This document shows positions 51,662 through 64,000 of a stretch of 64,000 nucleotides of DNA, one piece after another. The stretch covers positions 10,583 through 74,582 of the forward strand of contig JASJAX010000006.1 of assembly GCA_030066755.1 (NCBI GenBank). Reading direction: 5' to 3'. The notes beneath the pieces are model-generated. The model was not told the origin of the DNA. It saw nothing but the letters and a program-made list of their open reading frames with translations, and ran no database searches. The DNA is from Acidimicrobiia bacterium (GTDB lineage: Bacteria; Actinomycetota; Acidimicrobiia; Spongiisociales; UBA5794). Made by a program: the position numbers and the translations under genes. Every line of letters starts with the position of its first letter. Position 1 is the first letter of the stretch.

Positions 51662-52258
51662 TCACGCCATCCGAGCGGTCGCCGCCGCGAGGTCGTCCGG
51701 CGTGTTGACGCTCCACCAGGACGACCCATCCTCGCCCCAGCTTCGCCAGGTGTCCGGCACGATCTCGTGAAGGGGCACACGGTCGAGTACTGCGTGCAGC
51801 GGTGGATCGTCCGCGCCGGTGAGGAGGTCGTCGACGATGGCTGCACAGTTCGGCCAGTACACCGCACACGTCGGTTGTCGTTTGCCGCTGTCGATCGGGA
51901 CGACGGCATCTCCGTCGGCGACTGCCAACAGATGGCGGATCGTCTGCGGGCGCACGAACGGTTGGTCGACGCCGACGAGCACCACTGGCGCGCCGGCGGC
52001 GATCCGCAGCGCAGTGGAGAGGCCGGCGACCGGGCCACGCCGACCGGCCGGCGAGTCGGGGACACTGTGGATTCCGGCCGGTCGATCCGACCTTCCGATG
52101 ACGGCGACCCGACACCCGGCCGCTTCCAGCGCTTCAGCGGTGTACTCGATCATTGGTCGCCCGGCGAGGTCGACCAGGGCCTTGTCGACGCCCATGCGGG
52201 TGGACCGTCCTCCAGCGAGGATTGCGCCGAGCGGAGATGGACGCGTCATGGGACCCAT
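51662..52258 (-). CDS. mobA: molybdenum cofactor guanylyltransferase
   Basis: LGAILAGGRSTRMGVDKAL matches the MobA N-terminal signature. The start may be at 52258 or 52249. Confidence 0.7.
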   Translation of the reverse strand: MGPMTRPSPLGAILAGGRSTRMGVDKALVDLAGRPMIEYTAEALEAAGCRVAVIGRSDRPAGIHSVPDSPAGRRGPVAGLSTALRIAAGAPVVLVGVDQPFVRPQTIRHLLAVADGDAVVPIDSGKRQPTCAVYWPNCAAIVDDLLTGADDPPLHAVLDRVPLHEIVPDTWRSWGEDGSSWWSVNTPDDLAAATARMA

Positions 52259-52291: not shown

Positions 52292-52400
52292 CGTGTGTCC
52301 CGGCTGCGCTGATCTGCCATGTGCGAGATTCTGCATATACCATGCGTCGGGAAGGCCAGCGCTGCGGAGGCGCCATGCGAGCATCCAACTCGGTTCATCG

Positions 52401-53924
52401 ATGACCGATCGTCTGCGTGCCTTCTTCCCGCGACCCGTCACCGGCGACATCGTCGCCGGTGTCAGTGTGTCGCTGATCTTGATCCCCCAGGCTTTGGCCT
52501 ACGCCGACCTCGCCGGCTTGCCGCCGGTGTATGGCCTGTTCGCCGCCGCTCTCCCGCCGATCGTCGCCGCCATCTTCGCTTCGTCGCCATATCTGCAGAC
52601 CGGACCGGTGGCGATGACCGCCTTGCTCACGTTCGGGGCCCTGAGTCAGCTCGAGACTCCCGGATCCATGGAGTATGTGAAGCTCGCTGCCCTGCTGGCG
52701 TTGATCGTCGGGGTGGTGCGCGTGATCGTCGGCTCGCTTCGCGCCGGAGCGGTGGCGTACTTGATGTCACAGCCGGTCATCCAGGGGTTCACCGGCGGCG
52801 CGGCGATCCTGATCATCGCCTCGCAGCTGCCGACGGCGCTCGGTGCCGATGCTCCAGATGGCGGGGTGCTGCGCCGGGCTTGGTGGAGTGTCACGAACTT
52901 CAGTGAATGGGAGCTCGCCGCGGTTGCGATCACCCTCCTAGCGGCGTCGCTCCTGACCTTCGGCTCCAGGATCCACCCGCTGTTTCCCAGCGTGCTCGTC
53001 GCGGTTGCTGCTGCGCTCGTCTGGTCCATGATCACCGACTACTCAGGTCAGATCGTCGGCGAGGTCCCGGGTGGTCTCCCGCCGTTCTCGCTGGCGTTGC
53101 CGTGGAGCCGCTTCACCGACATCGCCGTCGCCGGTGCGGTGATCGCCCTCGTCGGATTCGCGGAACCGGCGTCGATCGCCCGGGCGTACGCGGCGCGGGA
53201 GCGGACACCATGGAGTCCCGATCGCGAGTTCCTCAGCCAGGGTGCCGCCAACCTCGCATCCGGCATCTCGGGAGGGTTTCCGATTGGTGGATCGTTCTCG
53301 CGGACGTCGGTGAATCACCTCGCCGGCGCCAAGACACGATGGAGTGGCGCCGTCACGGGACTCGTCGTATTTGCGTTCCTGCCGTTTGCCGGGATCATCG
53401 AGGACCTTCCCCGCGCCGTGCTGGCGGCCATCATCATCGTGGCGGTCGCCAAGCTGATCCGAGTGCCGGCGCTGCTCTCGTTGTGGAAGTACTCGAAGCC
53501 GCAGGCGCTGGTCGCCTACGTGACCTTCGGTGCAACATTGGTATTGGCGCCACGGATCGATCAAGCCGTGCTCGTCGGCATCGTGACGGCGATCGCAATC
53601 CACCTCTGGCGTGAACGGGTTGTCTCCGTCGAACTGGAGGTGCGTCGCGGCGGTGTGGCCCGGATCCGGCCTCAGGGTGTGTTCTGGTTCGGTTCGGCGC
53701 CCGACCTCGCAGAGGCGATGAACGAGCTGATGGGTGCGTATCCCGAGGCCGACACCATCGAGATCGACCTCGGCGGGCTCGGCCGGATCGACTACTCCAG
53801 TGCGGTGATGCTGCGGGACATGGTGAACGACGCCCGCAAGGCCGGATACGAAGTCGACGTGATCGCCGTCCCGGAGCACGCCCGCCGCATCTTGCGCGCC
53901 GTGTGGGCCGAGGAGATCAGGTAG
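52401..53924 (+). CDS. SulP family inorganic anion (sulfate) transporter with STAS domain
   Basis: Polytopic core with a C-terminal STAS-like domain. Motifs include GLPPVYGLF. Confidence 0.85.
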   Translation: MTDRLRAFFPRPVTGDIVAGVSVSLILIPQALAYADLAGLPPVYGLFAAALPPIVAAIFASSPYLQTGPVAMTALLTFGALSQLETPGSMEYVKLAALLALIVGVVRVIVGSLRAGAVAYLMSQPVIQGFTGGAAILIIASQLPTALGADAPDGGVLRRAWWSVTNFSEWELAAVAITLLAASLLTFGSRIHPLFPSVLVAVAAALVWSMITDYSGQIVGEVPGGLPPFSLALPWSRFTDIAVAGAVIALVGFAEPASIARAYAARERTPWSPDREFLSQGAANLASGISGGFPIGGSFSRTSVNHLAGAKTRWSGAVTGLVVFAFLPFAGIIEDLPRAVLAAIIIVAVAKLIRVPALLSLWKYSKPQALVAYVTFGATLVLAPRIDQAVLVGIVTAIAIHLWRERVVSVELEVRRGGVARIRPQGVFWFGSAPDLAEAMNELMGAYPEADTIEIDLGGLGRIDYSSAVMLRDMVNDARKAGYEVDVIAVPEHARRILRAVWAEEIR

Positions 53925-57726: not shown

Positions 57727-58851
57727 TCATTCGGACAACGCACACTCGTTTCGTCCGACCTCGAGCTCCATGGCTTCGTCGTGGGTCGGGATGTGCCAGC
57801 CCATGTTGACTTCGCGGATCGTGGCGTAGACCCCGGGCGCCTCGCCGAGATGGGAGACCACGTACGCAACGAACTCGCCCTCGTCGTCCATCGACACGAC
57901 CGGATCGTTGGCGAGGAGGTCACCGAGCTTGCGCCGTAGCGTTCCATCGGCCTGCGACTCGAGGCGGCTCGTGTAGTGGGCCGGGCAGACCTCGAGCTCC
58001 GAGTCGAGTGGTGCCAGCTGCTCGTGGATCGTGCGGAACAGATCGCGCGCCCACGGTTCCGTCTCGCCACCGAGGTCGGGTCTGCCGACCCCCGACACGA
58101 AGACTGCGTCACCCGTCATGAGGTAGCGGCCGTCGACCTCGAGCGAGGTGGACCCAGGGGTGTGTCCGGGAGTTGCCACCGACCGAACGATGATCTGCAT
58201 CGTGCCGAGTTGGAAGACGGCACCGTCGGTGAGCGCGTCGTACTTGAAGTGGGCTCCCTCGGCGTCGCCCGGTGCGATGTGATAGGTCGCCCCGAACTCG
58301 GCGGCCATCTGCACCCCGAGGGAGAGGTGGTCGGCGTGCAGGTGAGTGTCGAACACGTCGGTGATCTCGCACTCCATGTCGGCGGCGATCCGCTCGTACG
58401 CTGATGCGTCTCCGGCCGGGTCGATCACCGCCATCGACGATCCGCGAGATCCGACGGCGTACGACAGGCACGCCTTGGCGATTCGATCGAGCTGGACGAC
58501 GAACTTGGTCCCGTCGTCATACAGGACGTGCGGGACCAGGGTGCGTGCCCAGGCGTCCATTCCTCCGGCGAGGTTGTGCAGGTTGTCGAGCCCCAAGGTC
58601 TCGACGACGAGGTCGGATGAGTCGCCGTGCGCACATACGACGACTACCTCGCGGTCGTGGGGCACGACCTCCCTGGTCTCCTCGTCGTCGACGATCGCCG
58701 TCCAGTACGGGATGTTGAGGGTGGCCATGTCGGCCTTCCCCTCGATCTGCCATCGCTCGAACTGATCGGGTGCGCGAACGTCGAGAATGAATGGCGCAGA
58801 ATCGGGATCGTCGACGCGTCGGGCCAACTCGTCGGTCGTGATGGCAGTCAC
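57727..58851 (-). CDS. rhodanese-domain / MBL-fold persulfide-dioxygenase-like fusion protein
   Basis: N-terminal rhodanese domain (ILDVRAPDQFERWQIEG...VVVVCAHGDSS). C-terminal metallo-beta-lactamase domain with HLHADH. GTG 58851 is preceded by a GGGGAGAGAG SD-like sequence. An alternative ATG lies at 58887. Confidence 0.7.
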   Translation of the reverse strand: MTAITTDELARRVDDPDSAPFILDVRAPDQFERWQIEGKADMATLNIPYWTAIVDDEETREVVPHDREVVVVCAHGDSSDLVVETLGLDNLHNLAGGMDAWARTLVPHVLYDDGTKFVVQLDRIAKACLSYAVGSRGSSMAVIDPAGDASAYERIAADMECEITDVFDTHLHADHLSLGVQMAAEFGATYHIAPGDAEGAHFKYDALTDGAVFQLGTMQIIVRSVATPGHTPGSTSLEVDGRYLMTGDAVFVSGVGRPDLGGETEPWARDLFRTIHEQLAPLDSELEVCPAHYTSRLESQADGTLRRKLGDLLANDPVVSMDDEGEFVAYVVSHLGEAPGVYATIREVNMGWHIPTHDEAMELEVGRNECALSE

Positions 58852-58937
58852 AGGCTCTCTCCCCAGGTCGCATGCGTCAAGGCGCATACAACTCTAACGA
58901 GGCGCGGCGATCCGCCACAAGGAGTTTCTGCGTTTCG

Positions 58938-59255
58938 CTAGCTGAGGCTCGTTGCGGAGCCGAGCTGCTCGTTCATGACCTCGCGGAGCAGATCCATGGC
59001 TTCGACGATCTTGGTCGACGTGAGCGAGTAGTACACCCACTGGCCGTCACGGCGACCCGTCACCAGCCCGCGATCGCGAAGCACGGCGAGATGCTGGGAA
59101 ACGTTGGCCTGCGGGATATCGAGGTCATCGACGAGATCGGTCACAGAGCGCTCGCCATCGCGCAAGGCGTTGAGGATCAACAGTCGCTTCGGGTCGGCGA
59201 GACCTTTGCAGACGCTGGCGTGGAGTTGGTAGAGCTCGTTGCGGATCGATGACAT
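58938..59255 (-). CDS. ArsR/SmtB family transcriptional regulator
   Basis: ELYQLHASVCKGLADPKRLLILNAL...QANVSQHLAVLRDRGLV is a winged-HTH ArsR signature. Length is 105 aa. Confidence 0.8.
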   Translation of the reverse strand: MSSIRNELYQLHASVCKGLADPKRLLILNALRDGERSVTDLVDDLDIPQANVSQHLAVLRDRGLVTGRRDGQWVYYSLTSTKIVEAMDLLREVMNEQLGSATSLS

Positions 59256-59309
59256 GGCTGAACTATGCCATACCCCCGCGGCAAGGCCAAGGGCGGACCA
59301 CGGCGAACT

Positions 59310-59331
59310 GGTTGACAGATGATGGTCAACC
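59310..59331. promoter_or_regulatory. candidate ArsR-family operator GGTTGAC-N8-GTCAACC in divergent arsR / dsrE-like promoter region
   Basis: Perfect 7-bp inverted repeat. A locally AT-rich segment follows, caatgcatatatctgcgatgca (59348-59369), with its own TGCAT/ATGCA inverted repeat. Confidence 0.5.
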
Positions 59332-59387
59332 CGGCGAGGATGCACACCAATGCATATATCTGCGATGCAAGCGGGAGGGAGGACCCG

Positions 59388-59873
59388 ATGACCGACTCGT
59401 CCGAGAAGATGGTGATCATCGCGGCTTCCGGCGACCTCGATAAGGCGTGGCCGGTGATGATCCTGGCGACGACCGGTGCGGCCTACGGCATGGATGTCAC
59501 CGTGTTCTTCACTTTCTGGGGCCTCGGGATCCTGAAGAAGCCGGATGCCGGTCTCACGGGTGACGACTGGCGTCAGAAGATGCTCTCGGTCTTCAAGCCC
59601 GGGTCCACGGGCAAACTCGGCCTCTCGACGATGAACATGGGCGGCATGGGCGCGAAGATGATGAAAGGGCTGGCCGACGACCACAACGTGGCTTCGGTTC
59701 AGGAGCTGCTCGAGATGTCACAGGACATGGGAGTGAAGCTCTGGCCGTGCCAGATGACGATGGATCTGATGGGGTTATCGCGTGATGACATGATCGACGG
59801 CCTCGACGAACCGGCCGGCGCCGGCTCAGCCATCAGCCTCATGAAGGAAGCCTCGATCAGCTTGTTCATCTAG
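59388..59873 (+). CDS. DsrE/DsrF-like family protein
   Basis: KMVIIAASGDLDKAWPVMILATTGAAYGMDVTVFFTFWGL is a DsrE-like fold. SD GGGAGGGAGGA lies upstream. Confidence 0.7.
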   Translation: MTDSSEKMVIIAASGDLDKAWPVMILATTGAAYGMDVTVFFTFWGLGILKKPDAGLTGDDWRQKMLSVFKPGSTGKLGLSTMNMGGMGAKMMKGLADDHNVASVQELLEMSQDMGVKLWPCQMTMDLMGLSRDDMIDGLDEPAGAGSAISLMKEASISLFI

Positions 59874-59903
59874 GAGCGCACCAGAGAGAGGGAGAGAACC
59901 GAA

Positions 59904-60128
59904 ATGGCAGATGCAACCGTCGATGCTCGAGGCCTCCAGTGCCCGATGCCTGTGATCAAGGTCTCGCAGGCCGTCAAGGGCATGGAGTCCGGGCAGACCG
60001 TCGAGGTCATCGCAACCGACCGTGGCGCCTTGTCGGACATCCCGGCATGGGCCAAGGACATGGGCCACGCGCTGAAGGAGCAGTTCGAAGAGAACGACGA
60101 GTTCCACTTCATCGTCCAAAAGGGGTAG
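59904..60128 (+). CDS. TusA-like sulfurtransferase
   Basis: 74 aa. GLQCPMPVIK carries the CPxP motif. Confidence 0.8.
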   Translation: MADATVDARGLQCPMPVIKVSQAVKGMESGQTVEVIATDRGALSDIPAWAKDMGHALKEQFEENDEFHFIVQKG

Positions 60129-60160
60129 TTCGTACGTGCAGGAAGTAGCGTTGTCGTTCC

Positions 60161-60194
60161 GGTCTCAGTACTCAGTACTCGGTACTCAGTACTG
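60161..60194. repeat. (GGTCTCA)(GTACTCA)(GTACTCG)(GTACTCA)(GTACTG)
   Basis: Between the tusA-like stop and the FeS-NrfD gene. Confidence 0.85.
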
Positions 60195-60223
60195 CGAGCG
60201 ACGACCGTAGGGAGGAGCGAGCC

Positions 60224-61831
60224 CTGAGATACGGTTTCGTCATCGACCAGACCACGTGCATCGGCTGTCACGCGTGCACCGTCGCCTGCAAGACCGAGCA
60301 CGAGGTGCCGCTCGGCGTGAACCGCACGTGGGTGAAGTACGTCGAGAAGGGTGCGTGGCCCGACACGAAGCGGTTCTTCTCGGTGATGCGCTGCAACCAT
60401 TGCAGTGACGCGCCGTGCGTCGACATCTGCCCGACCACGGCCCTCTTCAAGCGCACCGACGGCATCGTGGACTTCGACACCGACCGGTGCATCGGATGCA
60501 AGTCGTGTATGCAGGCCTGTCCGTACGACGCCCTCTACATCGACCCGGGCGAGCACACCGCTCAGAAGTGCAACTACTGCGTACATCGAGTCGAGGTGGG
60601 GATCGAACCGGCATGTGTGGTGGTGTGCCCCGAACAAGCGATCATCGCCGGTGACCTGGACGACCCGACGACGAAGATCGCTCAAATGGTGAAGACCGAG
60701 CGGCTCTATCAGCGTGCGCCAGAGCAGGGCACGAGCCCCAACCTCTGGTACCGCGGGGTCGAGGAGGCCAACATCGATCCACTCGTCGCCGCCGACCCCG
60801 GTGACGGTGGCGTGTGGAAGGACCCTGCCCGCTCATGGCTGTCCGTGGATCTGACGCCGCCGACGGTGTCCCCGGACACGGCACAGGTGGCGCCGAATGC
60901 ACCACCACGCGTCGAGTACGACGGCCCCAAGGGTGCGCCGCGGGTTGTCTACAACACCGACCACCCGATGCCGTGGGGTTGGAGAGTTTCGAGCTACTTC
61001 CTCACCAAGGGCATTGCCGCAGGGTTGGTGATTCCACTCGCGCTGGCGTTGATCTTCGGTAGCAATGAACGAGACTTCTCCGGCGCTGACTCCGCCTGGG
61101 CTCTGTGGGGCGTGCCGCTGTTCGCCGGCTTGTTCCTCGCGCTCACCGGAGCCCTGCTGGTGTGGGACTTGAAGCGCCCCGACCGGTTCTACTACCTGCT
61201 CACCAAGGGCAATCCCGGTTCGTGGCTGGTTCGCGGCGCGTGGATCCTGAGTGCGTTTGCCGGAGTCGTTGCGCTGTGGTTCTTACTCGGCGTCTTCGAT
61301 GTGGGCGGTGACGATGCGATCACGGTGCTGGCTGCGATCGCCGCCGTCATCGGGCTCGGCGTTGCGGGATACACCGCGCTGCTCTTCGGCCAGGCCGAGG
61401 CGCGTGACCTCTGGCAGAGCCCGATGCTGCTGTGGCACATGCTCGCCGGTGCGTTGGCCGCCGGCGGCGGGGCCGGGCTCGTTTTCGGTTTGGTCTTCGA
61501 TCTCAGCGCCGGCACCGAACGCTGGTACGCCGGGTCGATGGTCGTCGGTGCTGCCGCACTCGGCCTGATCGCGCTCGTCGAGCTGATGTCAAAGCACCCG
61601 ACCCGCAATATCACGGAGGCGATGCACCACATGACGCACGGCGCGTACGCCCGTGAATGGTGGATCGGTGGCCAGCTCGTCGGCGTCGTTGTTCCCGTCG
61701 TGCTCGGCCTGGTGTTCCTCTCCGGCGCCGGTCTGTGGACGGGTGCCATCGGGGGCCTCGCTGCGTGTGCCGGGATCTGGTTCGCCGACGATGCGTTCGT
61801 GAAGGCCGGCCAGAGCGTTCCGCTTTCCTGA
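60224..61831 (+). CDS. fused 4x[4Fe-4S] ferredoxin (PsrB/NrfC-like) and NrfD/PsrC-like membrane anchor subunit
   Basis: The frame reads (L)RYGFVIDQTTCIGCHACTVAC...CNHCSDAPCVDICP...CIGCKSCMQACP...CNYCVHRV, four Cys clusters. Eight TM helices follow, with DLKRPDRF (NrfD motif). The only start consistent with keeping the first cluster is CTG 60224, 7 nt after SD GGAGGA (60211-60216). The in-frame stop is at 60146. Confidence 0.7.
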   Translation: MRYGFVIDQTTCIGCHACTVACKTEHEVPLGVNRTWVKYVEKGAWPDTKRFFSVMRCNHCSDAPCVDICPTTALFKRTDGIVDFDTDRCIGCKSCMQACPYDALYIDPGEHTAQKCNYCVHRVEVGIEPACVVVCPEQAIIAGDLDDPTTKIAQMVKTERLYQRAPEQGTSPNLWYRGVEEANIDPLVAADPGDGGVWKDPARSWLSVDLTPPTVSPDTAQVAPNAPPRVEYDGPKGAPRVVYNTDHPMPWGWRVSSYFLTKGIAAGLVIPLALALIFGSNERDFSGADSAWALWGVPLFAGLFLALTGALLVWDLKRPDRFYYLLTKGNPGSWLVRGAWILSAFAGVVALWFLLGVFDVGGDDAITVLAAIAAVIGLGVAGYTALLFGQAEARDLWQSPMLLWHMLAGALAAGGGAGLVFGLVFDLSAGTERWYAGSMVVGAAALGLIALVELMSKHPTRNITEAMHHMTHGAYAREWWIGGQLVGVVVPVVLGLVFLSGAGLWTGAIGGLAACAGIWFADDAFVKAGQSVPLS

Positions 61832-61847
61832 GGAGGATGACGACACC

Positions 61848-64000
61848 ATGACGACGCAGCGGGACGATCGTATCCCCCGTCTCCTCCCGGGGAGCGAGCT
61901 GACCAACTTCCCACCGCCGGACCGGTGGGACGACTGGGTCGAGTACGACGCACGGGCCTGGCCGAATCGGGTGACCCACGAGTACCGACTCGTGCCGACG
62001 ACGTGTTTCAACTGCGAGTCCGCGTGCGGGCTGCTCGCGTACGTCGACAAGGAGACGGGTGACGTTCGCAAGTTCGAAGGTAATCCCGCGCATCCAGGAA
62101 GTCGCGGCCGCAACTGTGCCAAGGGTCCCGCGACGATCAACCAGATGTACGACCCGGAGCGGATCCTCCACCCGATGCGTCGCGTCGGCGAGCGGGGTTC
62201 GGGCCAGTGGGAGCAGGTCAGCTGGGAGGAGGCGCTCCAGGACATCGCCGGTCGGATGCGCACCGCCATCCAGGAGGGACGTCAGGACGAGATCATGTAT
62301 CACGTCGGGCGGCCCGGCGAAGACGGGTTCATGGATCGCACGCTCAAGGCCTGGGGCGTCGACGGGCACAACAGCCACACGAACATCTGCTCGTCGGGAG
62401 CCCGCACCGGCTATGCCATGTGGATGGGTCACGATCGACCGTCAGCCGACTTCGCCAACGCCCGGTTCATCCTCCTGCTGTCATCGCACCTCGAGACCGG
62501 CCACTACTTCAACCCCCACGCCCAGCGGATCATGGAGGGGAAGCAGTCCGGAGCGAAACTCGCCACCATCGATCCGAGGCTCTCGAACACGGCGTCGATG
62601 TCGGACTACTGGCTGTCGCCGTGGCCGGGGACTGAGGCTTCGATCCTCCTCGCCATCGCCAATCTCCTGCTCGAGTGGGATGCGGTCGACCACACGTTCA
62701 TGAAACGCTGGGTCGACTGGGAGGGCGCGCTCGAGGCGAAGGCCCCGGGCGAGCCGAAGACGTACGAGCGGTTTGTCCAACTCCTCCGTGACACCTACGC
62801 CGGCTACACGGTGGAGTTCGCCGCAGCGGAGTCTGGCGTCGATGCCGAGCGGATCGATGCGGTGGCGCGAGGCATCGCCGAGGCCGGACACCAGTTTGCG
62901 TCGCACACGTGGCGGTCGGCCGGCTCAGGCAACCTCGGTGGTTGGCAAGTCGCCCGATGCCTGTGGTTCCTCCACGTGCTCACGGGCGCCGTCGGCACGC
63001 GTGGCGGGACCTCGCCGAGTGCGTGGGACAAGTTCAAGCCCGCGCACTGGAACATGCCGCCGCCGCACAGCCGATGGAACGAGCTGCTGTGGCCCAAGGA
63101 GTACCCGTTCAGCCACCACGAGCTCTCGATCCTGCTCCCGCATCTCTTGAAGGAGGGCCGCGGCAAGGTCGACGTGTACTTCAGCCGCGTCTACAACCCG
63201 ATCTGGACCAACCCGGACGGGTTCTCGTGGCTCGAGGCGTTGACCGACGAGTCGAAGGTCGGGTTGCACGTGGCGATGACGCCGACGTGGTCCGAAACGG
63301 CCTGGTTCGCCGACTACGTCCTGCCCATGGGGGTGGCCTCAGAGCGTCACGACACCCATTCCTATGAAACCCACGCCGGCCGCTGGCTCGGTTTCCGCCA
63401 GCCGGTCTTGCGGGTCGCAGCCGAGCGTGATGGCAAGCAGTTCGATCGCACCTACGAGGCCAACCCCGGAGAGGTGTGGGAAGAAACGGAGTTCTGGATC
63501 GACCTGTCCTGGCGCATCGACCCGGACGGATCGCTCGGGATCAAGGAGTGGTTCCAGTCGCCGAATGACCCCGATCGGCCGGTGTCGGTCGACGAGTACT
63601 ACGGATGGATGTTCGAGAACAGTGTGCCCGGTCTCCCCGAGAAGGCGGCGGCCGAAGGGATCACTCCGCTCCAGTTCATGCGGAAGTACGGCGCCGTCGA
63701 AGTGGAGAAGGACATCTACAAGGTCCACGAGCGCCCGGCGGCCGCCGACGCTCCAGGGGTGACCGTTGAGGGTGATCGGAAGACCGGCTTCAACTCGCCG
63801 AGCCGCAAGCTCGAGTGGTACTCGCAAACGATGGACGAGTGGGGGTGGCACGAGGAAGCGATTCCGACCTACCTCAAGACGCACGTCTACTGGCGCGACC
63901 TCGACCTGGCCGGCAACGAACGGGTCCTGTTGCCGATCTTCCGGCTCCCGACGCTCATCCACACCCGGTCCGGCAACGCCAAGTACCTGTACGAGATCAG
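61848..64000 (+). CDS. molybdopterin (bis-MGD) oxidoreductase catalytic subunit, no Tat signal (3' end outside window)
   Basis: The N-terminal CFNCESACGLLAYVD...GRNCAKG is the MopB [4Fe-4S] motif. HTNICSSG may be the Mo-ligand region. There is no RRxFLK motif. SD GGAGGA lies at 61832-61837. Confidence 0.8.
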   Translation, partial: MTTQRDDRIPRLLPGSELTNFPPPDRWDDWVEYDARAWPNRVTHEYRLVPTTCFNCESACGLLAYVDKETGDVRKFEGNPAHPGSRGRNCAKGPATINQMYDPERILHPMRRVGERGSGQWEQVSWEEALQDIAGRMRTAIQEGRQDEIMYHVGRPGEDGFMDRTLKAWGVDGHNSHTNICSSGARTGYAMWMGHDRPSADFANARFILLLSSHLETGHYFNPHAQRIMEGKQSGAKLATIDPRLSNTASMSDYWLSPWPGTEASILLAIANLLLEWDAVDHTFMKRWVDWEGALEAKAPGEPKTYERFVQLLRDTYAGYTVEFAAAESGVDAERIDAVARGIAEAGHQFASHTWRSAGSGNLGGWQVARCLWFLHVLTGAVGTRGGTSPSAWDKFKPAHWNMPPPHSRWNELLWPKEYPFSHHELSILLPHLLKEGRGKVDVYFSRVYNPIWTNPDGFSWLEALTDESKVGLHVAMTPTWSETAWFADYVLPMGVASERHDTHSYETHAGRWLGFRQPVLRVAAERDGKQFDRTYEANPGEVWEETEFWIDLSWRIDPDGSLGIKEWFQSPNDPDRPVSVDEYYGWMFENSVPGLPEKAAAEGITPLQFMRKYGAVEVEKDIYKVHERPAAADAPGVTVEGDRKTGFNSPSRKLEWYSQTMDEWGWHEEAIPTYLKTHVYWRDLDLAGNERVLLPIFRLPTLIHTRSGNAKYLYEI

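What the first reader, a model, noticed from the sequence alone, without database searches (positions are those of the whole stretch)
59256..59387. Candidate operator and AT-rich promoter in the arsR / dsrE-like divergent region
This region contains a perfect inverted repeat GGTTGAC-N8-GTCAACC (59310-59331) and a locally AT-rich TGCAT-ATATCTGCG-ATGCA segment (59348-59369), about 20-80 nt upstream of dsrE-like. Both are unusual in this roughly 70% GC context. ArsR-family repressors, including the sulfide-sensing BigR/SqrR/CstR analogs, bind such dyads. The element would put the dsrE-tusA-FeS-MopB genes and the Rhd-PDO gene under one regulator.
Basis: seen in the sequence. Interest (0 to 1): 0.5.

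Follow-up and report, generated by a model that had tools for sequence, protein, structure and literature searches.

The report
Conserved ArsR operator, not the flagged repeat
The flagged perfect inverted repeat is a conserved promoter -35 box next to an unconserved chance partner; the likely repressor site is a different 20-bp dyad beside it, which also recurs before two other sulfur-related gene sets and in many actinobacterial genomes.

Summary
GGTTGAC-N8-GTCAACC (59310-59331) exists and is perfect. A 7-bp perfect inverted repeat arises in 12% of shuffles of this spacer. Its left arm is the conserved -35 box TTGACA of the dsrE promoter. Its right arm is absent from all 21 other distinct arsR/dsrE spacers, including a relative whose ArsR is 98% identical.

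The conserved element is a 20-bp dyad at 59338-59357, GGATGCA-N6-TGCATAT (family consensus ATATGCG-N6-CGCATAT, core ATGC-N8-GCAT). It lies a fixed 21-22 nt after the -35 box and overlaps the -10 and the expected start site.

A second dyad (58870-58889) follows the -10 of a separate rhd-PDO promoter. A third (52319-52338) lies between mobA and a SulP transporter gene. In 80 loci encoding this ArsR subfamily there are 70 near-consensus sites against 6.4 expected, almost all upstream of dsrE, rhd-PDO or tusA.

The regulator has the ArsR fold but lacks the two cysteines of BigR/SqrR. It has one invariant cysteine (C16).

The parts
58938..59255 (-). arsR gene (105 aa), ArsR/SmtB-family winged-helix regulator with a single, invariant Cys16
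   Evidence: Pfam HTH_5 63.5 bits. NCBIfam NF033788 96 bits, above its cut-off of 55. C16 is invariant in 81/81 and 121/121 homologues. Model shows the a1-a2-a3-a4-b1-b2-a5 fold, with Rv0081, NolR and SqrR as nearest structures.
59262..59270 (-). Predicted arsR promoter extended -10 (TGgCATAGT on the minus strand). It ends 6 nt before the ATG, so the transcript would be leaderless.
   Evidence: ACTATGSCAYA is conserved next to the arsR start in most distant relatives and all close relatives. Coordinates checked. The promoter role is inferred.
59285..59290 (-). Predicted arsR promoter -35 (TTGGCC on the minus strand), 17 nt from the -10
   Evidence: GGCCAAGG is conserved in the closest relatives L087-L093. 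Inferred.
59310..59331 (.). It is the -35 box plus an unconserved stretch of the promoter spacer.
   Evidence: present, perfect. (chance level, P=0.117). (right arm 7/7 only in the window; best elsewhere is 6/7, in L086).
59312..59317 (+). -35 hexamer TTGACA of the dsrE-tusA-FeS/NrfD-MopB promoter
   Evidence: TTGAC is present at the aligned position in 17 of 22 distinct spacers. It lies a fixed 21-22 nt before the dyad core in all 16 sequences that have both.
59336..59341 (+). Predicted -10 hexamer GAGGAT (A2 and T6 present), 18 nt after the -35
   Evidence: The aligned hexamers in relatives are AAAGAT, TTAGAT/TAGATT, TTATAT and AAATAT. The consensus scan did not call it, because it matches TATAAT at only 3 of 6 positions. 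Inferred.
59338..59357 (.). O_dsrE: conserved 20-bp dyad GGATGCA-N6-TGCATAT (consensus ATATGCG-N6-CGCATAT), the candidate ArsR operator overlapping the -10 and +1
   Evidence: The invariant columns of alignment A1 are 59340, 59341, 59343, 59354, 59355 and 59357; the nearly invariant ones are 59352, 59353 and 59356. The core ATKC-N8-GCAT is present in 21/22 spacers. Motif enrichment is 70 sites against 6.35 expected.
59365..59369 (.). It is an optional auxiliary half-site at most.
   Evidence: A comparable downstream ATGC occurs only in some lineages and at variable spacing: L089 N9, L004 N8, L012 N6. It is absent from L081-L084, L087 and L092.
59373..59383 (+). Shine-Dalgarno GGGAGGGAGGA of dsrE-like
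   Evidence: GGGAGG plus ATGAC is conserved in the alignments.
59388..59873 (+). dsrE-like gene (DrsE_2 family, 161 aa)
   Evidence: Pfam PF13686, E=3.6e-50.
59904..60128 (+). tusA
   Evidence: Pfam PF01206, E=2.8e-26.
60224..61831 (+). 4Fe-4S ferredoxin + NrfD membrane-anchor fusion. The start is uncertain: CTG at 60224 or a later codon.
   Evidence: Pfam Fer4_11 + NrfD. The FeS motif lies upstream of the first canonical start. TtrB/DsrO-like by NCBIfam, below the cut-offs.
61845..64000 (+). Molybdopterin oxidoreductase catalytic subunit. It runs off the window and has no twin-arginine motif.
   Evidence: Best NCBIfam match is PhsA, 159 bits, below its cut-off.
58870..58889 (.). O_rhd: second dyad GCATGCG-N6-CGCATAC, immediately downstream of the rhd-PDO promoter -10
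   Evidence: 11/14 match to the consensus. A dyad occupies the same place after arsR in L001, L002, L003, L005, L006, L010, L012, L016, L017, L024, L029, L069, L081, L083 and L086.
58891..58896 (-). Predicted rhd-PDO promoter -10 (TAGAGT on the minus strand)
   Evidence: ACTCTA is conserved in L081, L083 and L086. Inferred.
58915..58920 (-). Predicted rhd-PDO promoter -35 (TTGTGG on the minus strand), 18-nt spacer
   Evidence: ACAAGG is conserved in L081 and L083, with GCAAGG at the same place in L086. Inferred.
57727..58851 (-). Rhodanese-persulfide dioxygenase fusion gene. The revised start is GTG 58851 (374 aa).
   Evidence: Pfam Rhodanese + Lactamase_B. Relatives are called at 374-375 aa and homology begins at residues 13-16. 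A GGGGAGAGAG ribosome-binding site lies upstream.
52319..52338 (.). Third dyad ATGTGCG-N6-TGCATAT (12/14) in the mobA / sulP divergent spacer
   Evidence: 0.05 sites at 12/14 expected per window. (MobA and SulP identities). Relative L095 keeps a 12/14 dyad at the same distance in an otherwise unalignable spacer.

Best explanation
The 132-bp arsR/dsrE spacer holds two back-to-back promoters and one repressor site.

The dsrE-operon promoter has the -35 box TTGACA at 59312-17, which is the left arm of the flagged repeat. An 18-nt spacer and the -10 GAGGAT at 59336-41 follow. A 20-bp dyad at 59338-59357 (GGATGCA-N6-TGCATAT; family consensus ATATGCG-N6-CGCATAT) overlaps the -10 and the expected start site.

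The most likely mechanism is that a dimer of the adjacent ArsR-family protein binds this dyad and blocks RNA polymerase. The same protein would bind a second dyad just after the -10 of a separate rhd-PDO promoter (58870-58889). It would also bind a third dyad between mobA and sulP (52319-52338). Together these make a small regulon for handling sulfane sulfur and sulfite. Release would follow chemical modification of the single invariant cysteine C16, at the a1/a2 junction, probably by sulfane sulfur.

Shown here: the conservation, fixed position and enrichment of the dyad; the non-conservation of the flagged repeat; the cysteine pattern.

Inferred: that this ArsR is the binding protein, that it represses, the start sites, the signal, and the role of C16.

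The flagged GTCAACC arm has no demonstrated role and is best read as chance.
For: - Invariant columns in a 15-sequence alignment of orthologous spacers fall at 59340, 59341, 59343, 59354, 59355 and 59357, that is ATGC-N8-GCAT(AT). The flagged right arm has no conserved column.
- In 12 loci (7 distinct spacers) from relatives with ArsR 82-98% identical, GGTTGACA, RGATGCAC and GCATAT are constant while the 18-nt spacer is rewritten. The closest relative reads GGTTGACAGACGTCGGTTGATCC.
- Of 22 distinct spacers, 21 have the core. The distance from the -35 to the core is 21-22 nt in all 16 that have both.
- In 80 loci chosen only for encoding this ArsR subfamily (441 kb), there are 70 sites at >=11/14 against 6.35 in shuffles, and 34 at >=12/14 against 0.45. 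A 6-nt spacer is preferred. Nearly all sites lie upstream of dsrE, rhd-PDO, tusA or arsR.
- In the second gene arrangement (dsrE <-> rhdPDO-DUF202-DUF202-arsR), the dyad sits between TTGTTA and TAGTGT of the dsrE promoter. It also sits just after TACATT of the opposing rhd-PDO promoter.
- No other regulator gene is conserved in these loci.
- The 4-N8-4 geometry equals the SqrR site ATTC-N8-GAAT quoted in PMC9774250.
- The recognition helix PQxNVSQHLAxLR is nearly invariant across the subfamily.
Against: - No binding or expression data exist.
- The window's own sites are imperfect (10/14 and 11/14) and are not individually significant in a 64-kb scan. The case rests on position and conservation.
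- The -10 GAGGAT is weak, and the consensus scan called no promoter here.
- The motif tracks the target genes. arsR orthologues without sulfur-gene neighbours usually lack it nearby. The regulator assignment therefore rests on co-localisation.
- The dyad lies about 85-100 bp upstream of the predicted arsR start, so direct autoregulation is not evident in this gene arrangement.
- The protein lacks both cysteines used by every characterised ArsR-type persulfide sensor. The proposed signal and the role of C16 are therefore speculative.
Confidence: 0.7

Rival explanations
1. One reading: GGTTGAC-N8-GTCAACC (59310-59331) is the ArsR operator, and ArsR bound there represses both divergent transcription units.
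For: The repeat is perfect and unique in the window. It overlaps the -35 box, which is a plausible position for a repressor. It is the most stable local hairpin in a single-strand fold.
Against: It is at chance level, P=0.117. The right arm is absent from all 21 other distinct orthologous spacers, including relatives with 94-98% identical ArsR and the same recognition helix. No similar dyad occurs elsewhere in the window beyond chance: 4 matches at up to 3 mismatches against 3.5 expected. None lies upstream of rhd-PDO.
Confidence: 0.04
2. The conserved ATATGCG-N6-CGCATAT dyad is a real operator, but another, unlinked regulator binds it. The adjacent ArsR would have different targets or a different role.
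For: The motif follows dsrE, rhd-PDO and tusA rather than arsR. arsR orthologues without these neighbours mostly lack it within 300 nt. The ArsR lacks known sensing residues.
Against: 49 of 80 loci selected by ArsR homology alone carry at least one site, against about 6 in shuffles. No other regulator gene is conserved in the loci. The dyad geometry is that of an ArsR-type dimer site. The recognition helix and the half-site sequence are conserved together from Acidimicrobiia to Nanopelagicales and Nocardioidaceae.
Confidence: 0.12
3. The conserved palindrome acts at the RNA level, as a hairpin in the dsrE leader affecting stability or translation, rather than as a protein-binding DNA site.
For: ATGCA-N6-TGCAT folds as a 5-bp hairpin. 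There is a sub-threshold Rfam match to the flpD motif at 59315-59391, 23 bits, E=0.026.
Against: The Rfam score is far below the gathering score of 40. Base identity, not pairing, is conserved: ATGC/GCAT is kept, and flanking positions vary without compensation. In the second gene arrangement the dyad lies between the -35 and -10, upstream of the start site. The left half overlaps the -10 and would be largely untranscribed.
Confidence: 0.04
4. The flagged repeat is a lineage-specific addition. It would be a site for a second, species-specific regulator, or a cruciform that tunes the -35 region, layered on the conserved operator.
For: One relative (L086) has a 6/7 partner at 9-nt spacing. CAAC recurs in the promoter spacer of 4 of 17 sequences, at different positions.
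Against: The positions differ. The nearest relative, with 98% identical ArsR, has lost it. No candidate regulator or second copy was found. Chance explains it.
Confidence: 0.08

Closest known systems
SqrR (Rhodobacter capsulatus) and YgaV (E. coli), ArsR-type sulfide/persulfide-responsive repressors
   Same: ArsR fold: SqrR 6o8k/6o8l are among the top structural and sequence neighbours at about 35-40% identity. The dyad has a 4-N8-4 core geometry, with ATTC-N8-GAAT quoted for SqrR (PMC9774250). The sites lie at RNA polymerase recognition elements. The target genes handle sulfide or sulfane sulfur.
   Different: The half-site sequence differs: ATGC/GCAT, extended to ATATGCG. Both sensing cysteines are absent; the a2 Cys aligns to N29 and there is no a5 Cys. 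A different cysteine, C16, is invariant.
BigR (Xylella/Agrobacterium) and its bigR-blh operon
   Same: An ArsR-family gene is linked to a metallo-beta-lactamase-fold persulfide dioxygenase, here fused to a rhodanese.
   Different: The protein scores 65 bits against the NCBIfam BigR equivalog, whose cut-off is 155. It lacks the Cys pair. Here rhd-PDO has its own promoter and operator downstream of arsR.
SoxR and sHdrR of Hyphomicrobium denitrificans
   Same: These are ArsR-type repressors of gene sets that include tusA and dsrE-type sulfur transferases, and they act at several intergenic sites (PMC10451225 and PMC12423496).
   Different: Those proteins share the two conserved cysteines (Cys50 and Cys116 in SoxR) that form a sulfur bridge. 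The protein here has neither. The phylum also differs (Actinomycetota) and so does the operator sequence.
Rv0081 (M. tuberculosis) and NolR (Sinorhizobium), ArsR-family members without a classical inducer site
   Same: They are the best sequence and structure matches: E about 7e-14, and TM 0.75 to 6jmi. They have no metal site and no a2/a5 Cys pair.
   Different: Rv0081 and NolR have F and L at the position of C16 (alignments). Their targets are unrelated to sulfur: formate hydrogenlyase and hypoxia genes, and nodulation genes. Rv0081's cluster in the ArsR similarity network is described as largely uncharacterised (PMC10054925).

Membership tests
ArsR/SmtB winged-helix transcription factors | HTH_5 (PF01022) / NF033788 domain above the curated cut-off | tested here: met
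   PF01022 63.5 bits against a cut-off of 22. NF033788 96 bits against 55.
ArsR/SmtB winged-helix transcription factors | a1-a2-a3-a4-b1-b2-a5 fold | tested here: met
   AlphaFold model with pLDDT 83.8: helices at 2-15, 22-33, 38-45, 49-61 and 81-103, strands at 65-70 and 73-78. The top Foldseek hits are all ArsR-family proteins.
ArsR/SmtB winged-helix transcription factors | Binds an imperfect dyad overlapping the promoter of adjacent genes | tested here: inconclusive
   A conserved, positionally fixed and enriched dyad is present. Binding by this protein was not and cannot be tested here.
BigR/SqrR/HlyU/SoxR persulfide-sensing ArsR proteins (similarity-network cluster 4 of PMC10054925) | Pair of conserved cysteines in a2 and a5 that form an intraprotomer polysulfide bridge | tested here: not met
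   The a2 Cys of HlyU aligns to N29. No Cys column exists at that position or in a5 in 81 and 121 homologues. Only C16 is invariant; position 42 is Cys in a minority.
BigR/SqrR/HlyU/SoxR persulfide-sensing ArsR proteins (similarity-network cluster 4 of PMC10054925) | Scores above the NCBIfam BigR equivalog cut-off | tested here: not met
   NF040642 65 bits against a cut-off of 155.
BigR/SqrR/HlyU/SoxR persulfide-sensing ArsR proteins (similarity-network cluster 4 of PMC10054925) | Genomic linkage to rhodanese, persulfide dioxygenase, sulfurtransferase and sulfur-transporter genes | tested here: met
   arsR is flanked by rhd-PDO and by dsrE-tusA. The linkage is kept in two gene arrangements across dozens of genomes.
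BigR/SqrR/HlyU/SoxR persulfide-sensing ArsR proteins (similarity-network cluster 4 of PMC10054925) | Loss of DNA binding on treatment with persulfide or polysulfide | not testable with these tools
   Needs purified protein, with EMSA or anisotropy with and without GSSH or polysulfide.
Metal- or metalloid-sensing ArsR/SmtB repressors | a3 CXC (ELCVCDL) or a5 Asp/His/Glu metal-ligand set | tested here: not met
   The a3 region reads ERSVTDLVDDL. The a5 helix, TKIVEAMDLLREVMNEQL, has no His or Cys (sequence; conservation).
Sigma-70-type (housekeeping) promoter for dsrE | -35 hexamer close to TTGACA at 16-19 nt from a -10 hexamer | tested here: met
   TTGACA matches 6/6 at 59312-17 and is conserved in 17/22 spacers at a fixed distance from the dyad.
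Sigma-70-type (housekeeping) promoter for dsrE | -10 hexamer with at least 4/6 match to TATAAT | tested here: not met
   GAGGAT matches 3/6 (A2, A5, T6) and the scan called no promoter. Relatives have better hexamers at the same place, such as TAGATT and TATATT.
Sigma-70-type (housekeeping) promoter for dsrE | Mapped transcription start site | not testable with these tools
   Needs 5'-RACE or differential RNA-seq.

The most novel reading that the evidence does not exclude
This ArsR represents an uncharacterised, widespread actinobacterial subfamily found in Acidimicrobiia, Nanopelagicales, Nocardioidaceae and others. It would sense reactive sulfur, or a related thiol-reactive signal, through a single invariant cysteine at the a1/a2 junction rather than the a2/a5 dithiol of all known ArsR-type persulfide sensors. 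The chemistry might be an interprotomer bridge or a simple persulfidation. Through the operator ATATGCG-N6-CGCATAT it would control a regulon that couples a DsrE/TusA sulfur relay and a rhodanese-persulfide dioxygenase to a cytoplasm-facing Mo-bisPGD/FeS/NrfD oxidoreductase, MobA and a SulP exporter.
Probability: 0.3. Interest if true: 0.6.

Novelty: new variant of a known kind. Interest (0 to 1): 0.4.

Why it matters
The analysis replaces a plausible but unconserved palindrome with a testable operator consensus (ATATGCG-N6-CGCATAT) and three concrete sites in this genome. It predicts a sulfur-detoxification or sulfur-oxidation regulon in uncultured Acidimicrobiia and in abundant freshwater and soil Actinomycetota.

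It also flags an ArsR subfamily that is linked to persulfide-handling genes yet lacks the cysteine pair regarded as the hallmark of ArsR-type persulfide sensors. If the invariant C16 is the sensor, that would be a second sensing chemistry within the same fold.

The practical lesson for scans of this kind is that a perfect 7-bp inverted repeat in a 130-bp spacer is expected about one time in eight. It should be checked against orthologues before it is called an operator.

Tried and rejected
There were 4 matches against 3.5 expected, none near sulfur genes.
- The sigma-70 consensus scan of 58800-59600 called no promoter. The promoter assignments therefore rest on conservation.
- An Rfam scan of 58700-60400 gave only a sub-threshold flpD match (23 bits against a gathering score of 40) and a spurious snoRNA match. 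Both were rejected.
- I considered whether the conserved ACTATGSCAYA next to arsR is a second operator. It resembles one half-site (TATGC), but no partner lies at the right distance. I read it as an extended -10.
- I looked for the dyad near arsR orthologues that lack sulfur-gene neighbours. It is mostly absent.
- I looked for the dyad upstream of more distant SulP homologues. It is absent except in L095, L101 and L121, so the mobA/sulP site is lineage-specific.
- Literature searches for this operator sequence, or for an actinobacterial ArsR linked to DsrE, TusA or PDO, found nothing specific. The Rv2034 operator (CCGTAAGT-N4-ACTTACGG) is unrelated.
- A dimer model to locate C16 relative to its partner subunit could not be made with the tools available.

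Full report
**What is in the sequence**

The 132-bp spacer 59256-59387 separates arsR (58938-59255, minus strand) from a dsrE-like gene (59388-59873, plus strand). After dsrE come tusA, a 4Fe-4S/NrfD fusion and a molybdopterin oxidoreductase. A rhodanese-persulfide dioxygenase fusion lies downstream of arsR. An identical ArsR protein is recorded from an Acidimicrobiia MAG.

The flagged repeat GGTTGAC-N8-GTCAACC sits exactly at 59310-59331. It is perfect and is the only perfect copy in the window. A further ATGCA at 59340-44 was overlooked. The segment is genuinely AT-rich, at 41% GC against 65% for the window; only 0.27% of 22-nt windows are that low.

**Is the repeat more than chance?**

No. 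A perfect inverted repeat of at least 7 nt with a loop of at most 20 nt appears in 11.7% of dinucleotide shuffles of this spacer. There are 250 such repeats in the window.

**Comparative test**

One scan of species-representative genomes with the ArsR protein returned 80 loci.
- Fourteen have the same divergent arsR/dsrE arrangement.
- About thirty more have a second arrangement, in which dsrE faces rhd-PDO and arsR lies at the end of the rhd-PDO operon after two DUF202 genes.
- Seven look-ups of closer metagenomic homologues added twelve loci with an arsR/dsrE spacer, ArsR 82-98% identical.

In the alignment of distant spacers, the only invariant columns are 59340, 59341, 59343, 59354, 59355 and 59357. 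Columns 59352, 59353 and 59356 are nearly invariant. The conserved signal is therefore ATGC-N8-GCATAT. TTGACA is conserved as well, and nothing is conserved under GTCAACC.

Among the close relatives, GGTTGACA, RGATGCAC and GCATAT are constant while the 18 nt between them are rewritten. The nearest relative (ArsR 98% identical) reads GGTTGACAGACGTCGGTTGATCC.

Over 22 distinct spacers:
- TTGAC is present in 17.
- The dyad core is present in 21.
- The gap from the -35 box to the core is 21-22 nt in all 16 that have both.
- A 7/7 inverted partner of the -35 region exists only in the window. One other locus, L086, reaches 6/7.

**What the conserved element is**

The half-sites define a 20-bp dyad with the consensus ATATGCG-N6-CGCATAT. 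The window's copy at 59338-59357 is GGATGCA-cacaa... written in full, GGATGCA-CACCAA-TGCATAT. It matches at every high-information position.

In the 441 kb of loci, which were selected only by ArsR homology, there are 70 sites at >=11/14 against 6.35 in shuffles. There are 34 sites at >=12/14 against 0.45. The 6-nt spacer is clearly preferred. Almost every site lies upstream of dsrE, rhd-PDO, tusA or arsR.

In the second gene arrangement the dyad lies between a TTGTTA -35 and a TAGTGT -10 of the dsrE promoter. It also lies just after the TACATT -10 of the opposing rhd-PDO promoter. This is a classic shared operator.

In the window the dyad begins inside the predicted -10 (GAGGAT, 59336-41, 18 nt after TTGACA) and covers the expected start site. 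The consensus scan did not call this promoter, because the -10 matches only 3 of 6 positions. Relatives carry TAGATT or TATATT at the same place.

**More sites in the window**

A second dyad, GCATGCG-N6-CGCATAC, lies at 58870-58889, between the arsR stop and rhd-PDO. It immediately follows a conserved TAGAGT -10 and a TTGTGG -35 on the minus strand. Equivalent sites occur after arsR in at least fifteen relatives. The site lies inside the longest ORF for rhd-PDO. Relatives are called at 374-375 aa, and homology begins at residues 13-16. The real start is therefore most likely GTG 58851, which has a good ribosome-binding site.

A third dyad is the best in the window at 12/14, where 0.05 are expected. 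It lies at 52319-52338 between mobA and a SulP-family transporter gene. The one relative with the same arrangement, L095, keeps a 12/14 dyad at the same distance. The rest of its spacer cannot be aligned.

**The regulator**

The protein is an ArsR/SmtB family member by Pfam, NCBIfam and predicted fold. Its nearest solved relatives are Rv0081, NolR, NmtR, HlyU and SqrR, at about 35-40% identity.

It is not a BigR/SqrR-type sensor by the defining feature.
- The a2 cysteine of HlyU aligns with N29, and there is no a5 cysteine.
- No homologue among 81 and 121 sequences has a cysteine at either place.
- It scores 65 bits against the BigR equivalog cut-off of 155.
- The published definition of the persulfide-sensing cluster is exactly that cysteine pair (PMC10054925; PMC10451225).
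- It has no a3 CXC motif and no a5 metal ligands.

It does have one cysteine, C16, that is invariant in all 81 and 121 homologues within LHAxVCKGLADPKRL. The model places C16 at the end of helix a1. The recognition helix is nearly invariant across the subfamily, which fits the shared half-site.

**Mechanism and how far it is shown**

Shown:
- A conserved, positionally fixed and enriched dyad at three promoters in the window.
- The flagged repeat is not conserved.
- The cysteine pattern.

Inferred with good support: the adjacent ArsR binds the dyad and represses by occluding the -10 and +1. The support is co-localisation in 49 of 80 loci, the absence of any other conserved regulator gene, and a 4-N8-4 geometry matching SqrR's ATTC-N8-GAAT (PMC9774250).

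Inferred weakly: the signal is sulfane sulfur acting on C16. Also weak is the reading of the regulon as a pathway. In that reading a sulfur relay (Rhd, TusA, DsrE) feeds persulfide dioxygenase, which makes sulfite. The cytoplasm-facing Mo enzyme, which has no twin-arginine motif, would oxidise it, and SulP would export the product.

In this gene arrangement the arsR promoter appears leaderless, with a TGgCATAGT extended -10 ending 6 nt before the ATG. It lies 85-100 bp from the dyad, so direct autoregulation is not evident.

**Rivals**

- A different, unlinked regulator binding the dyad cannot be excluded, because the motif follows the target genes.
- An RNA-level role is unlikely. Base identity rather than pairing is conserved, and the dyad lies upstream of the start site in the second arrangement. 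The only Rfam signal is far below threshold.
- A lineage-specific function for the flagged repeat remains possible, but nothing supports it.

**Novelty and verdict**

The kind of system is known: an ArsR-family repressor with a dyad operator controlling sulfur-handling genes. The operator sequence, the subfamily and its single-cysteine make-up were not found in the literature searched.

I rate it a new variant of a known kind, of moderate interest.

Noticed in passing
window 52319-52338: The best match in the window to the operator consensus (ATGTGCG-N6-TGCATAT, 12/14) lies in the divergent spacer between mobA (51662-52249, minus strand) and a SulP-family transporter gene (52401-53924, plus strand). 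Relative L095 keeps a 12/14 dyad at the same distance in an otherwise unalignable spacer. More distant SulP homologues lack it.
   Followed up: partly
window 58870-58889 and 58851-58887: The longest ORF for rhd-PDO (ATG 58887) swallows an operator-like dyad. The real start is probably GTG 58851 (374 aa), preceded by GGGGAGAGAG, as called in close relatives.
   Followed up: yes
window 59340-59387: Gene callers in related contigs start dsrE at the ATG equivalent to 59340 (177 aa), which lies inside the operator. The conserved Shine-Dalgarno plus ATGAC favours 59388 (161 aa).
   Followed up: partly
window 60164-60193: A tandem heptamer repeat (CTCAGTA x 4.3, 91% matches; it contains the AGTACT palindrome) lies in the 95-nt gap between tusA and the FeS/NrfD gene. 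Its function is unknown.
   Followed up: no
window 60224-60305: The conserved N-terminal FeS motif RYGFVIDQTTCIGCHAC of the Fer4/NrfD fusion lies upstream of the first ATG/GTG/TTG start (60305). This implies a non-canonical start, CTG at 60224. A relative has TTG there.
   Followed up: partly
window 61845-64000: The molybdopterin oxidoreductase has no twin-arginine signal (MTTQRDDRIPRLLPG...), and its FeS partner is fused to the NrfD anchor. This suggests a cytoplasm-facing enzyme, possibly a SoeABC-like sulfite oxidiser, rather than a periplasmic polysulfide or thiosulfate reductase. Its best NCBIfam match, PhsA, is far below the cut-off.
   Followed up: partly
ArsR residue 42 (window codon at about 59130-59132): Position 42 in helix a3 is Cys in 31/81 and 56/121 homologues but Val in the window protein. 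Part of the subfamily therefore has a second cysteine near the classical ArsR a3 site.
   Followed up: no
L085 (ArsR 89% identical): This close relative lacks dsrE, tusA and rhd-PDO; arsR directly faces the FeS/NrfD gene. It also lacks the dyad while keeping the arsR -10 element. This looks like a natural deletion of targets and operator together.
   Followed up: no
L031-L080 (e.g. L040 1105-3315): A second, widespread gene arrangement occurs in Nanopelagicales, Nocardioidaceae and others: dsrE-tusA facing rhdPDO-DUF202-DUF202-arsR. A single dyad is shared by face-to-face promoters. In Nanopelagicales the site is a variant, ATATGCGCAGACGCTAAT, that fits a 4-nt spacer better.
   Followed up: partly
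window 59315-59391: A sub-threshold Rfam match to the archaeal flpD RNA motif (23 bits against a gathering score of 40, E=0.026). Judged to be chance.
   Followed up: partly
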